From contig CAVYTA010000007.1 in the NCBI GenBank assembly GCA_963771355.1, positions 32,001 through 96,000 on the forward strand: a stretch of 64,000 bases of DNA, in the 5' to 3' direction. Shown here one piece after another: positions 34,068 to 37,338 of this stretch. The stretch's first letter is position 1. Each line of letters starts with the position of its first letter. A program made the position numbers and the translations under genes. The notes below the pieces were generated by a model that had not been told where the DNA came from, made no database searches, and was given only the letters and a program-made list of their open reading frames with translations. Origin of the DNA: an uncultured Candidatus Rokubacteria bacterium. Its GTDB lineage: Bacteria; Methylomirabilota; Methylomirabilia; Rokubacteriales; CSP1-6.

Positions 34068-34892
34068 ATGCCCACGGTCCGACTGCGCGACGCCTCCGAG
34101 TATCCCGATCCCGCCCAGAAGCTCTTCGAGCTGTCGAAGAGCTGGTTTAACCACGACTTCAAGCACCCGCCCGCGATGAGCCGCGTCATGGCCTGGGATC
34201 CCGAGTTCGGTGGCCCGCATGGACGCGCGATGAAGCGAGCCATGGCGCCGGGGGAGTGGAGCCGCGGTGAGAAGGAGATGGTGGCGGCGGTCGTCAGCGG
34301 GGTCAATGCCTGCGCCTACTGAACGCTGGCGCATACTGCAGCCGGGAAGCTGCAGGGGATGGAGGGTGATCACCTCTGGTACGAGGCCGCCCACGTGGTC
34401 GGGATCACCAATGCGCTGAACGTGGCCGCGGATGGTCTGGCCGCGCTGCCCACGGTGACGGCGCTGCTGCCTCCGGTGGCGGAGGCGCAGGCGGGCGACA
34501 CGGCGGGGGATCTATTCGCCGAAATCCGCGCCTTCTACGCTCGCGGGGACGTGCCGCCGGTTTTCCGACTGCTCGCCCGCGACCCGGCCTATGCTGCCGA
34601 CGTGTGGGCGGCGACGCGCCGGGCCTTCGGGGACAATCGGCTCGCCCGGCGGTTCAAGGAGGCGCTGGCTTTCGCTGTCTCCCTGACCTCGCGCTCCGAA
34701 TGGGGCACGGGCTTTCACCTGGCGGAGATGAAGCGGCTGGGGGTGGGGGACGGCGGGGTGATGGAAGTGATCGGCGTCACGCAGATGTTCTCGAGCTATA
34801 CCAAGATCGCCGACACGCTCCAGCTCGAACCCGACATGGGCGACATCGCCCCGGTGGACGATTCACCCGCGCCCGGAGGGGCCCCGCGCTAG
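34068..34892 (+). CDS. CMD/AhpD-like selenoprotein (TGA at 34320-34322 read as Sec, CxxU)
   Basis: Two same-frame ORFs joined by one TGA: EMVAAVVSGVNAC-A-Y-U-TLAH; SD AGGAG; hairpin downstream of the TGA. Confidence 0.82.
34336..34355 (+). promoter_or_regulatory. Putative bacterial SECIS hairpin
   Basis: Perfect stem CTGCAGC / GCTGCAG with G-containing loop CGGGAA, 13 nt after the UGA. Confidence 0.7.
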
Positions 34893-35209
34893 ACGAGCGG
34901 CGGCCCGACGGGGATTCGCGGGAGGATCGAGTTCGGCAGCGTGACGTGCTCGACGCAGTACAGGCAGAAGAAGTCGATCTCCAGCCCTGCGCGCGTTCCG
35001 TGGAACTCCAGCGGCTGGCCGCACCACGCATGGTGCAGCTCGCCGTCAGTGTGGAAGTACACGGTCACGATCGGCGGGTTCCCGGGCGGATTCCCGTCCT
35101 GTCCTCGCGGCGTGCGGCGCGTCCCGGGACGGCCACGGCGGCGCGGGGTAGCATCATCACGGCGGCTGGGCGCCGAGGATTCCTGCGTGGTGATCGGGGC
35201 GACTGCCAT
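34889..35209 (-). CDS. Small putative zinc-ribbon protein (HxxC...CxxC), paralog 1
   Basis: SD GGAGG; HAWCGQPLEFHGTR...DFFCLYCVEHVTLP, shared with the gene at 37022-37282. Confidence 0.72.
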   Translation of the reverse strand: MAVAPITTQESSAPSRRDDATPRRRGRPGTRRTPRGQDGNPPGNPPIVTVYFHTDGELHHAWCGQPLEFHGTRAGLEIDFFCLYCVEHVTLPNSILPRIPVGPPLV

Positions 35210-35280
35210 GGCTCTCTTCCTCCCTCATCCTCTTCGATGTGTCACTTGGCCGAACCCTGCCCGGTCTGAACGAGGGAGAG

Positions 35281-35296
35281 AGCAAGAGGCGTTCCA
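35281..35296 (-). promoter_or_regulatory. Sigma-54 (-24/-12) promoter
   Basis: Minus strand TGGAACGCCTCTTGCT (GG-N10-GC). Confidence 0.7.
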
Positions 35297-35648
35297 GACC
35301 TGACACGCAGCATAAACATAGGATTCTAAAGGCTGACATATTCTCAGCCCGGCCTCAAGGGTGTCAAAACTCAAGACAAACTGCGAAGGCCGGAGGCGCG
35401 GGTGACGCTTTTTGTAGGGACGAGGGTGCTGGGATACTGCCCTGCCCTCTCCCGGAGAGAACTCCGCCGCGCACGCAGTCTCGCGCGTTGCGCCCCCAGC
35501 AGTACCGGGGTCTCGTCGTCCAACTACTCCCCCAGGTTCCGTCACCCCACTCCGGTCGTGAATCGGGGGAAAGAGTGGCTATACTGAGCCGCAGGGGAAT
35601 GGCGCCGACCCCGGAACCGGTGTCACGGTCAACACAAGGAGATACCCC

Positions 35649-36608
35649 ATGAAGCGAGCGATGGCACTGTTGGTCCTGGCGGTCCTTCTGCTCATCCCCG
35701 CCCTGTGGGCGGCCGATGCGTGGGCGCGAGCGGGAGGCGGAAGCTCGAGCGGTAGCCGCGGCTCGCGGAGCTATTCCGCGCCGGCTTCACCCAGCACTTC
35801 ACCCTCGAGCCGGCCAAGCACACCGGCGTCGAGCTATCAGCAGCCGGCGCCGCAGCGCTCCGGTTGGGGCGCGGGTCTCGGGGGGATGCTCGGCGGCCTC
35901 GTCCTCGGTGGCTTGATCGGAAGCCTTCTCTTCGGCGGCATGGGCCACCTGGGGGGCGGCGGCATCGGCCTCCTCGAGATCGCCATAGTCGGCGCGCTGG
36001 TCTACTTCGGCTTTTCCTATATGCGCCGCCGCCAGCAAGCCGTCGCCGCCGGCCCCGCCGGCTACGCTGATCCCCAGTCGGCCCCGCCGTCATGGAAACC
36101 CGAGCCAACCTCACGGAGCGCCGCCGTGCTGGACGCGCCCGGCGCCGGCGCGGTGGACACGGATCTCACGCGCGGCATCGCCCATATCCGCCAGATGGAC
36201 CCCGGCTTCGACCCCGCTCGGTTCGGTGAGATGGCGTCGGACGTCTTCTTCCGGCTGCAGGGCGCGTGGATGACCCGCGACATGGGTGGAATGCGGGGGG
36301 CGCTCACCGAGGAGATGTACAAGACGCTGCAAGCCCAGTGTGACCAGCTTCGCGCGGAGCGCCGGGTGAACCGCCTCGAGAACATCGCGGTACGCTCGGT
36401 GGAGCCGACGGAGACGTGGCAGGAAGAGGGACGCGACTTCGTCACCGTCCGCTTTCTCGCCAACCTGCTCGACTACACGACGGATGAGAGCGGCACCCAG
36501 CTCGTGGACGGGAACCGGACGGAACCGGTGAAGTTCGAGGAGTTCTGGACCTTCACGCGCCCGGTGGGTCCCGGCGCGTGGCGTCTCTCGGCGATACAGC
36601 AGGCCTGA
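35649..36608 (+). CDS. Tim44-like domain membrane protein
   Basis: ARAGGGSSSGSRGSRS, Gly-rich TM region, DPGFDP..F, Q.AW, FEEFWTF.R. Confidence 0.88.
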   Translation: MKRAMALLVLAVLLLIPALWAADAWARAGGGSSSGSRGSRSYSAPASPSTSPSSRPSTPASSYQQPAPQRSGWGAGLGGMLGGLVLGGLIGSLLFGGMGHLGGGGIGLLEIAIVGALVYFGFSYMRRRQQAVAAGPAGYADPQSAPPSWKPEPTSRSAAVLDAPGAGAVDTDLTRGIAHIRQMDPGFDPARFGEMASDVFFRLQGAWMTRDMGGMRGALTEEMYKTLQAQCDQLRAERRVNRLENIAVRSVEPTETWQEEGRDFVTVRFLANLLDYTTDESGTQLVDGNRTEPVKFEEFWTFTRPVGPGAWRLSAIQQA

Positions 36609-36663
36609 TCGGTGCGCCCGGGCTCGGCCGCCGAGCCCGGGCCCATCGACGCTGGATTGTCGC

Positions 36664-36795
36664 TCAGCGCTCGATGAGCTTCATGGTCCCGCCGCACGAG
36701 CGGCAGCGGGGCAGAACGGCCAGCGAGCTGCTGCGAGTGCGCCCGCAACAGATATAGGTCCTCGGCGCGGGGGCCGCGCTCGGCGGCGGGGTCAT
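36664..36795 (-). CDS. 43-aa zinc-ribbon microprotein (absent from ORF track)
   Basis: [47 protein letters not shown] overlap with the upstream stop. Confidence 0.6.
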   Translation of the reverse strand: MTPPPSAAPAPRTYICCGRTRSSSLAVLPRCRSCGGTMKLIER

Positions 36796-37001
36796 TGCCA
36801 GGGCCTCCCCTCACAGATCGGGCAGGCCTCGACCTCGCGCTGACACAGGCACTGCGGGCAATACCAGGACTCGTTCACCGCGCGGAGCTCGCTTCCACAG
36901 GGCTCGCAGCGGGCTCGCTCACGCGGCGGCGTCTGGTGGAAGATGCAGTGGGCGATCATGTGGATGGCCCCTGCGTGCCGGACTTGCTCGAGCACCGCCA
37001 T
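36792..37001 (-). CDS. 69-aa Cys-rich zinc-ribbon protein
   Basis: SD AAGGGAG; CIFH, CEPC, CPQC, CPIC pairs. Confidence 0.65.
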   Translation of the reverse strand: MAVLEQVRHAGAIHMIAHCIFHQTPPRERARCEPCGSELRAVNESWYCPQCLCQREVEACPICEGRPWQ

Positions 37002-37021
37002 GACTGGTCTCCCTTACCCGC

Positions 37022-37282
37022 TCAGTCCGCCCCGGCGATGGCGAAGCGCGGGGACCAGGATCCAGGCGCGTGCACACCCATCTCCAGGCTGGGCAGCCGG
37101 CGAAGCGGAAGCGATACGTGCTCCTGGCAGTCGAGGCAGAAGAAGTCCACCGCGACACTGCCGCGCGTGCCGTGGAACTCGAGCGGCTGCCCGCAGCGGG
37201 CATGCGAGATGGTCCCGTCGGAACCCATGGAGGCGGCGGCCTCCTGCTTGAGGCTGCCCGTTTCCGTGGCGCAAGTCGTCAT
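37022..37282 (-). CDS. Small putative zinc-ribbon protein (HxxC...CxxC), paralog 2
   Basis: HARCGQPLEFHGTR...DFFCLDCQEHVSLP; purine-rich SD. Confidence 0.72.
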   Translation of the reverse strand: MTTCATETGSLKQEAAASMGSDGTISHARCGQPLEFHGTRGSVAVDFFCLDCQEHVSLPLRRLPSLEMGVHAPGSWSPRFAIAGAD

Positions 37283-37322
37283 GTCAGTGGCCCCCTCTCT
37301 CCTGTCCTTGGAACATTAGGGG

Positions 37323-37338
37323 AGCAAGATCCGTTCCA
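37323..37338 (-). promoter_or_regulatory. Sigma-54 (-24/-12) promoter
   Basis: Minus strand TGGAACGGATCTTGCT. Confidence 0.7.

What the first reader, a model, noticed from the sequence alone, without database searches (positions are those of the whole stretch)
34889..37338. Two sigma-54-driven units encoding four tiny zinc-ribbon proteins
Seen: paralogs at 34889-35209 and 37022-37282 share H-A-x-CGQPLEFHGTR-x5-DFFCLxC-x-EHV-x-LP. Each is preceded by a near-identical TGGAACG-N4-TTGCT element (35281-35296; 37323-37338). The second leads an operon with a 69-aa protein (CxxH plus three CxxC) and a 43-aa protein (CC...CxxCGG). Known: TGGCACG-N4-TTGC is the sigma-54 consensus. Inference: a co-regulated, probably undescribed set of metal-binding microproteins under enhancer-binding-protein control, possibly stress or developmental regulators.
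Basis: partly seen in the sequence, partly recalled or inferred. Interest (0 to 1): 0.7.

Follow-up and report, generated by a model that had tools for sequence, protein, structure and literature searches.

The report
Rokubacteria zinc-ribbon microproteins under sigma-54
Two related tiny genes and a cysteine-rich neighbour are conserved genes of uncultured soil Rokubacteria that sit behind sigma-54-type promoter sequences and encode predicted zinc-binding proteins of no described family, the related pair likely acting as small DNA-binding regulators that are probably switched on under stress, while the fourth tiny gene is broken or missing in several close relatives.

Summary
Observation confirmed. 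A (106 aa) and B (86 aa) share an HxxC-x18-FxCxxC core with no Pfam, NCBIfam, PHROG, PADLOC or PDB match. It occurs in 100 of 158 genomes of the host's family and 0 of 92 others in the phylum. Named hits are mostly Rokubacteria. dN/dS is 0.11 (A), 0.19 (B), 0.04 (C). D is intact in 3 of 7 genus genomes. The genome has rpoN, 24 strong enhancer-binding-protein matches and about 60 sigma-54 sites, several heading stress genes, so sigma-54 control is ordinary here. Less ordinary: 57 of 60 family promoters have A after GG (TGGAAYG, against TGGCAY), in 16 of 21 genera, with IHF-like sites and a shared upstream motif. That word also occurs in genomes lacking the gene. Most homologues have basic tails, some AT-hook-like; distant ones carry a phage-type treble-clef finger. 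Best reading: a small DNA-binding regulator, inferred and untested. Transcription and zinc binding were not shown. Earlier scan notes report other Rokubacteria sigma-54 microproteins but not this family.

The parts
34889..35209 (-). Gene A, 106 aa: Arg-rich tail with an RRRGRP AT-hook-like motif (label recalled), then the HxxC-x18-FxCxxC zinc-ribbon core
   Evidence: dN/dS 0.11 over 60 codons in 7 genomes; RBS GAGGGAGGA
35281..35296 (-). Sigma-54 -24/-12 element of A, TGGAACG-CCTC-TTGCT, with A in place of the consensus C after GG
35313..35325 (-). IHF-like site AATCCTATGTTTA, 2 mismatches to the recalled consensus WATCAANNNNTTR
   Evidence: family-wide enrichment
35403..35417 (-). Candidate upstream activator site CTAC-N7-GTCA, about -140
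   Evidence: kept in 7 of 7 genus genomes; function inferred
35649..36608 (+). Tim44-like gene lying between the two units; not part of the finding
   Evidence: PF04280 E=1e-40
36616..36642 (.). 12-bp GC-rich hairpin between the converging Tim44-like gene and D; possible terminator, no U run seen
   Evidence: z -2.7 (minus) and -3.9 (plus)
36664..36795 (-). Gene D, 43 aa, CC...CxxCGG; start overlaps C's stop; weakly conserved
   Evidence: intact in 3, frameshifted in 1, absent in 3 of 7 genus genomes; dN/dS 0.48 from 3 sequences and 31 codons
36792..37001 (-). Gene C, 69 aa, CxxH plus three CxxC; a separate undescribed Cys-rich family
   Evidence: 24 homologues; dN/dS 0.04; model pLDDT 84, no fold match at E<=0.001
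37022..37282 (-). Gene B, 86 aa: paralogue of A, same zinc-ribbon core, short tail, C-terminal extension
   Evidence: dN/dS 0.19
37323..37338 (-). Sigma-54 -24/-12 element of B-C-D, TGGAACG-GATC-TTGCT
37404..37418 (-). Candidate upstream activator site CTAC-N7-GTCA, about -99
   Evidence: kept although the divergent neighbour gene differs between genomes

Best explanation
A and B are paralogous, conserved small proteins with a predicted zinc-ribbon core that are likely transcribed from sigma-54 promoters, probably under stress, and likely work as small DNA-binding regulators. Shown: real genes under purifying selection; four invariant ligands (His, 3 Cys); a conserved -24/-12 element with A after GG; rpoN and activators in the genome. 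Inferred, step by step: (1) one enhancer-binding protein binds the upstream (T/C)(G/T)AC-N7-GTCA site, IHF bends the DNA, and sigma-54 polymerase opens the promoter. The off-consensus A would keep the promoter weaker and more activator-dependent. (2) The signal is stress or stationary phase, by association with the other sigma-54 targets. (3) The core binds one zinc and presents a three-stranded sheet (R-x-C, G-x-R, E-x-D-F) to DNA or a partner, helped by a basic, AT-hook-like or treble-clef tail where present. (4) C is a genus-level passenger that joined B's unit, and D is dispensable.
For: Ligands invariant in 121 of 121 aligned proteins (set chosen by similarity). dN/dS 0.11, 0.19, 0.04. 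Stand-alone gene among changing neighbours across genera. 57 of 60 located promoters carry A after GG (the search left that base free). IHF-like site in 34 of 57 promoters against 8.5 shuffled. Upstream motif in 7 of 17 genus representatives against 1.8 shuffled, on one helical face, R=0.87. Of 16 hand-picked genes behind other sigma-54 sites, 3 are Usp, 1 ferritin-like and 1 BON; Ku follows another site. 138 of 226 homologues have a tail with 5 or more R/K, 8 a GRP motif and 11 a treble clef; the treble clefs match endonuclease VII/HNH N-terminal parts. The model shows a beta-hairpin plus three-strand meander, which PMC5906684 (passages) describes as type-2 zinc ribbons, common in nucleic-acid binders. 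Weak fold neighbours include NrdR and HVO_0758.
Against: No significant structural or sequence match: Foldseek best E 0.2, VIA best Z 4.5, PDB sequences none under E 0.5. 29 of 226 homologues have no tail and the core's median net charge is 0; B's own tail is not basic. 19 of 79 gene copies had no strict promoter site and 3 had C. The upstream motif was defined after looking at these sequences, is missing in 10 of 17 representatives, and is not enriched among the genome's sigma-54 sites (7 of 65 against 6% background). B's own IHF-like site has 3 mismatches. The 16 regulon genes were picked by eye and 11 are not stress genes. RNA-library contigs also cover neighbours and intergenic DNA, so transcription is not shown.
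Confidence: 0.45

Rival explanations
1. The core is a protein-binding adaptor (for RNA polymerase, sigma-54, an activator or a protease) and the basic tail is an optional extra; sigma-54 control is as above.
For: Neutral core with conserved hydrophobic and acidic surface; tail-less members exist. Weak fold neighbours include Rip1, CarD and PipX, which bind proteins (Z 2.9-4.5; their roles partly recalled).
Against: All those Z-scores are in the range of common folds. Independent fusions to basic tails and treble clefs point to nucleic acid.
Confidence: 0.25
2. The Cys-rich set is a zinc or redox buffer or sensor made under stress, not a regulator of DNA.
For: All four proteins and a third TGGAACG-driven gene are Cys-rich. 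A selenium-containing peroxidase-like gene converges on A.
Against: Many non-ligand residues are conserved (D, G, R, E, F, P), which a buffer would not need. The peroxidase neighbour was seen in only 3 of the genera compared.
Confidence: 0.13
3. The family is a domesticated phage or mobile-element domain with a defence or anti-defence role, such as sensing a phage protein.
For: Distant homologues carry phage-type treble clefs. One lies in a record titled Candidatus Saccharibacteria. The top VIA row is phage Rip1 and weak viral fold rows are HNH/NUMOD4 proteins.
Against: No PADLOC or PHROG match for A-D. No relative in viral contigs with 2 queries or in named phages. Presence follows genera and neighbours are housekeeping genes.
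Confidence: 0.1
4. The GGAAC word is an ECF-sigma -35 box or a LexA operator, not a sigma-54 element.
For: GGAAC-N18-GTT (recalled SigR/SigH form) occurs before B in the genus and in one other genus.
Against: TTGC at the sigma-54 spacing is in 56 of 57 sites while no -10 word is conserved family-wide. The likely LexA box here is TCAAC-N4-GTTGA, and all 57 promoters differ from it at 3 or more places.
Confidence: 0.05

Closest known systems
One-domain zinc-finger microproteins of Haloferax (HVO_0758; PMC10716476, abstract seen)
   Same: Stand-alone protein under about 100 aa with one four-ligand zinc site and a basic N-terminal part; top or second fold neighbour (Foldseek E 0.2, VIA Z 4.0).
   Different: First knuckle is HxxC, not C(P)XCG; 18% identity; bacterial, sigma-54-controlled; NCBIfam HVO_2142 match far below cut-off (13.6 against 90 bits).
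Type-2 zinc ribbons of nucleic-acid-binding proteins (NrdR N-terminus, TFIIS/Rpb9, Ku bridge; PMC5906684, passages seen)
   Same: Predicted three-stranded meander with two knuckles; HxxCG...FxCxxCxExV pattern aligns with the Rokubacterial Ku bridge (hhalign probability 85, P 6e-6, 25 columns).
   Different: Nine extra residues in the hairpin against Ku; no ATP cone (NrdR); no invariant acidic pair at the hairpin tip as in TFIIS (TFIIS feature recalled).
Sigma-54 promoters with enhancer-binding protein and IHF (PMC3844500, passages and section 12 seen)
   Same: GG and TGC elements at the right spacing, IHF-like site near -50, upstream motif at 87-140 bp, inside the 70-150 bp range the paper gives.
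   Different: A instead of C after GG is nearly fixed in this family. In that paper TGGAACG appears at two intragenic Salmonella binding sites, so the word is a known tolerated variant, not new.
AT-hook nucleoid proteins and xenogeneic silencers (Lsr2, H-NS, MucR/Ros; recalled)
   Same: Small size, basic tail with GRP motif in some members, a second small domain.
   Different: GRP motif in only 8 of 226 homologues; no sequence match to those families.

Membership tests
Sigma-54-dependent promoter | GG and GC elements at -24/-12 with fixed spacing | tested here: met
Sigma-54-dependent promoter | rpoN and enhancer-binding proteins in the genome | tested here: met
   rpoN over cut-off; 24 strong of 27 PF00158 matches
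Sigma-54-dependent promoter | Upstream activator site and IHF site | tested here: inconclusive
   IHF-like enrichment 34 of 57; upstream motif 7 of 17, defined after the fact; cognate activator unknown
Sigma-54-dependent promoter | Start about 12 nt after GC, lost without rpoN | not testable with these tools
   only assembled contigs were offered
Zinc ribbon (fold) | Two ligand knuckles at beta-hairpin turns, conserved | tested here: met
   H27, C30, C49, C52 invariant in 121 of 121; strands 25-27, 35-40, 44-49, 54-59, core pLDDT about 80
Zinc ribbon (fold) | Binds zinc | not testable with these tools
   needs protein
C(P)XCG haloarchaeal zinc-finger microproteins | Two C(P)XCG motifs | tested here: not met
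   HxxCG and CxxCxE instead; family models below cut-off
Ku (bridge zinc ribbon) | Ku beta-barrel core PF02735 | tested here: not met
   no Ku match for A or B; likeness limited to 25 columns
Ku (bridge zinc ribbon) | Segment-swapped dimer | not tested
TFIIS/Rpb9 C-terminal ribbon | CxxC-x24-CxxC with acidic DE hairpin tip (recalled) | tested here: not met
   spacing mostly 18, first ligand His, tip G-x-R-x-x-L-E; no Pfam match
HNH / endonuclease VII | His-Me catalytic domain | tested here: not met
   no match for A-D; distant homologues match mainly the N-terminal treble-clef part
LexA regulon | LexA box at the promoter | tested here: not met
   3 or more mismatches to the inferred box in 57 of 57 promoters; the box itself is inferred
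Known anti-phage systems | PADLOC model match | tested here: not met
   0 of 5 proteins

The most novel reading that the evidence does not exclude
The A/B domain came from phage or mobile DNA and was domesticated in one Rokubacteria family as a second-tier sigma-54 regulator. It would bind over, or help polymerase read, the TGGAAYG-N3-C-TTGC promoter class, which includes its own promoter and those of other small genes. That would explain why a non-consensus base is nearly fixed across 16 genera and in at least one unrelated gene family, and would be a new way of splitting a sigma-54 regulon at the core promoter, not at the enhancer.
Probability: 0.1. Interest if true: 0.75.

Novelty: new member of a known kind. 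Interest (0 to 1): 0.42.

Why it matters
Rokubacteria are abundant uncultured soil bacteria (own knowledge), and the searches run here found no paper on their sigma-54 regulon. This locus gives an undescribed, lineage-defining zinc-ribbon family, a testable promoter layout (core element, IHF-like site, phased upstream motif), and a natural case of selection holding a sigma-54 promoter off-consensus. If the protein reads that promoter class, it would add a layer to sigma-54 control. If not, it is one more small zinc protein of unknown target.

Tried and rejected
Promoter class depends on the gene: a first comparison looked strong (14 TGGAAYG-N4-TTGCT sites in 5 genomes with the gene, 5 of them its own promoters; 0 in 5 genomes without, which hold 144 TGGCAY sites). 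The wider test undid the strict form: 35 of 92 genomes outside the family, none with the gene, hold the word, and in genus g15 nearly every genome has just one site, mostly the gene's own. ECF and LexA readings: rejected. Family libraries: no significant match for A-D in Pfam, NCBIfam, PHROGs, PADLOC; PDB by sequence for the A/B profile (21); Rfam none in 34000-38000 (132). ESM Atlas gave unnamed Methylomirabilota clusters for B and only scores under 0.9 for C. Fold searches gave nothing significant; the VIA search for C had not finished when the session ended. Complex prediction of a homodimer was not available, so oligomeric state is open. Viral contigs and named phages: no relatives with single-protein queries; a profile scan could not be run. 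Neighbourhood clustering showed no partner gene conserved across the family (output was cut). RNA: 8 of 24 listed runs were laid; contigs cover B in 6 runs (3 studies) and A in 3 runs (2 studies), but neighbours and intergenic stretches are covered too, so this shows presence only. PMC4894688 (passages): its TGGAACG lies in oligonucleotides upstream of a normal TGGCAC promoter, not in the -24 element. The tree (61 columns, 33 of 69 forks open) cannot place the root or a donor. Supplements were not read, and subscription papers are outside the library, so a description there cannot be excluded.
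Full report
Observation. A (34889-35209) and B (37022-37282) align at 59% over 49 residues, E=2e-15, and are the only two copies in the genome. A Tim44-like gene on the plus strand lies between the units. B is followed by C, which has its own ribosome-binding site, and by D, whose start overlaps C's stop. A GC-rich hairpin follows D.

Are the genes real? Among 7 genomes of the genus, pooled dN/dS is 0.11 for A, 0.19 for B and 0.04 for C (58-60 codons each). For D it is 0.48, from 3 sequences and 31 codons. 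D is intact in 3, frameshifted in 1 and absent in 3 of those 7. C has 24 database homologues and occurs in 6 of 7 other genus genomes plus one clear and two weak matches among 158 family genomes; the clear one is in a genome with no A/B match. So A, B and C are real, D is marginal, and the four are not one fixed set.

The A/B family. A profile finds it in 100 of 158 genomes of the host's family and 0 of 92 genomes of the 12 other families searched (many genomes are incomplete). A database search gives 186 proteins among 1238 candidates. Where named, they are hypothetical proteins, mostly of Rokubacteria or Methylomirabilota, with one record each labelled Verrucomicrobiae and Tectomicrobia. A full HMM scan gives 134 representatives. 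His and three Cys are invariant in 121 of 121 aligned proteins. After dropping 3 long repeat proteins and A's own record, 226 of 251 held proteins had a locatable core: 138 have a basic N-tail, 8 a GRP motif, 11 a treble clef and 29 no tail. The treble clefs match the N-terminal parts of phage endonuclease VII/HNH families. One such protein lies in a record titled Candidatus Saccharibacteria and another distant one in a Sungbacteria record. In the tree, A groups with homologues of two other genera (98/91) apart from B, so the pair is older than the genus; deeper forks are unresolved. Neighbours change between genera.

Known families and folds. No significant match for A-D in Pfam, NCBIfam, PHROGs or PADLOC, nor for the A/B profile in PDB sequences. 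The model of B has a core at pLDDT about 80: a hairpin plus a three-strand meander. Foldseek's best row is HVO_0758 at E 0.2. VIA's best are Rip1 (Z 4.5, rmsd 2.6, 52 aligned), HVO_0758 (4.0, 2.8, 49) and NrdR (3.4, 2.0, 39), all in the range of common folds. Viral rows are weak, many HNH/NUMOD4. The core aligns with the Ku bridge ribbon over 25 columns at probability 85, a lead only. C folds confidently with no fold match at E<=0.001.

The promoters. The genome has one rpoN, 24 strong activator matches of 27 and about 60 sites (62 and 65 under two patterns), enriched at the correct spacing (47 against 3-8). Of 16 hand-picked downstream genes, 3 are Usp, 1 ferritin-like and 1 BON, and Ku follows another. 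Of 79 fetched gene copies in 21 genera, 60 had a strict site: 57 with A after GG and 3 with C; 16 genera have an A site. Five site-less copies in one genus have C there but a mismatch in the -12 part, so perfect-consensus promoters are rare in the family. IHF-like sites occur in 34 of 57 against 8.5 shuffled (consensus recalled). CTAC-N7-GTCA lies near -140 (A) and -99 (B) in all 7 genus genomes, and TGAC-N7-GTCA near -87 in two other genera. With one promoter per genus or subtype, 7 of 17 carry it against 1.8 shuffled, in helical phase, but the motif was defined from these sequences and is not enriched genome-wide (7 of 65). In 5 genomes, the A form comes almost only with G at position 7 (14 against 4, the 4 being at control level), unlike the C form (13 against 89) (kin are not independent). 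This fits compensation for a weaker base. An unrelated 65-aa Cys-rich gene behind the third TGGAACG site is in 112 of 158 family genomes; 26 of 30 fetched copies show GGA(A/T)Y at the expected distance, a count that searched for GGA, while the -12 C varies. Against a private promoter class: 35 of 92 genomes without the gene hold the word, and TGGAACG appears at two Salmonella sigma-54 binding sites (PMC3844500, passages and section 12).

Expression. Contigs from soil and rhizosphere RNA libraries cover B in 6 and A in 3 of 8 runs laid, but also neighbours and intergenic DNA, so transcription is not shown.

Mechanism. Best reading (0.45): an enhancer-binding protein with IHF activates these deliberately sub-optimal sigma-54 promoters, probably under stress, and the zinc ribbon, with its basic or treble-clef tail, binds DNA as a small regulator. 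Type-2 zinc ribbons are common in nucleic-acid binders (PMC5906684, passages), and HVO_0758 is a proven zinc microprotein affecting motility genes (PMC10716476, abstract). Rivals: protein adaptor (0.25), metal or redox buffer (0.13), phage-related role (0.10), ECF or LexA control (0.05). The anatomy (real genes, sigma-54-type promoters) I hold at about 0.9.

Novelty. Seven literature searches found no description of this family or of a Rokubacterial sigma-54 regulon; most subscription papers and all supplements were unseen. Earlier scan notes hold nothing on this sequence but three notes on other sigma-54-driven Cys-rich microproteins of Rokubacteria, unchecked here. Verdict: an undescribed family of a known kind, with one unexplained feature, the nearly fixed non-consensus promoter base. 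Interest 0.42.

Noticed in passing
window 34068-34892 (+), TGA at 34320-34322: Two annotated-looking CMD/AhpD pieces are likely one selenoprotein: C-A-Y-U read-through, with the TGA and a hairpin CTGCAGC-CGGGAA-GCTGCAG kept in 7 other loci; selB is present.
   Followed up: yes
L028 4576-4773 (-); G000:C6:2690578-2690772: A 65-aa Cys-rich gene behind the third TGGAACG-N4-TTGCT site, downstream of an enhancer-binding-protein gene and upstream of an isocitrate-lyase-like gene (label from reading the sequence). In 112 of 158 family genomes, often in tandem pairs; no Pfam match; its -12 element often reads TTGT, TTGA or TTGG.
   Followed up: partly
G000 genome-wide: A large sigma-54 regulon (about 60 sites, 24 activators) that includes Usp, ferritin-like, BON, Ku and PEP-CTERM genes; it may serve as a general-stress regulon in these bacteria.
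   Followed up: partly
L203-L215, upstream of lexA: A palindrome TCAAC-N4-GTTGA upstream of lexA across the order is a candidate Rokubacterial SOS box; a genome scan did not clearly confirm it at other SOS genes.
   Followed up: partly
G000:C6:1839947 (-) and G197:C10:20738 (L124): Orthologous small secreted-looking proteins both sit behind the GGAACG promoter form; no Pfam match.
   Followed up: no
Among sites with G at position 7, the base before TTGCT is G in 10 of 13 C-form sites and 0 of 14 A-form sites in 5 genomes; unexplained, and kin are not independent.
   Followed up: partly
L141 9962-10462: A distant homologue fused to a treble-clef finger lies in a Patescibacteria-titled contig among what read as tRNA genes (not run through a tRNA finder).
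   Followed up: partly
L151 and other Ku loci: Rokubacterial Ku proteins keep an HxxC...CxxC zinc-ribbon bridge, some with the last Cys replaced by Asp.
   Followed up: no
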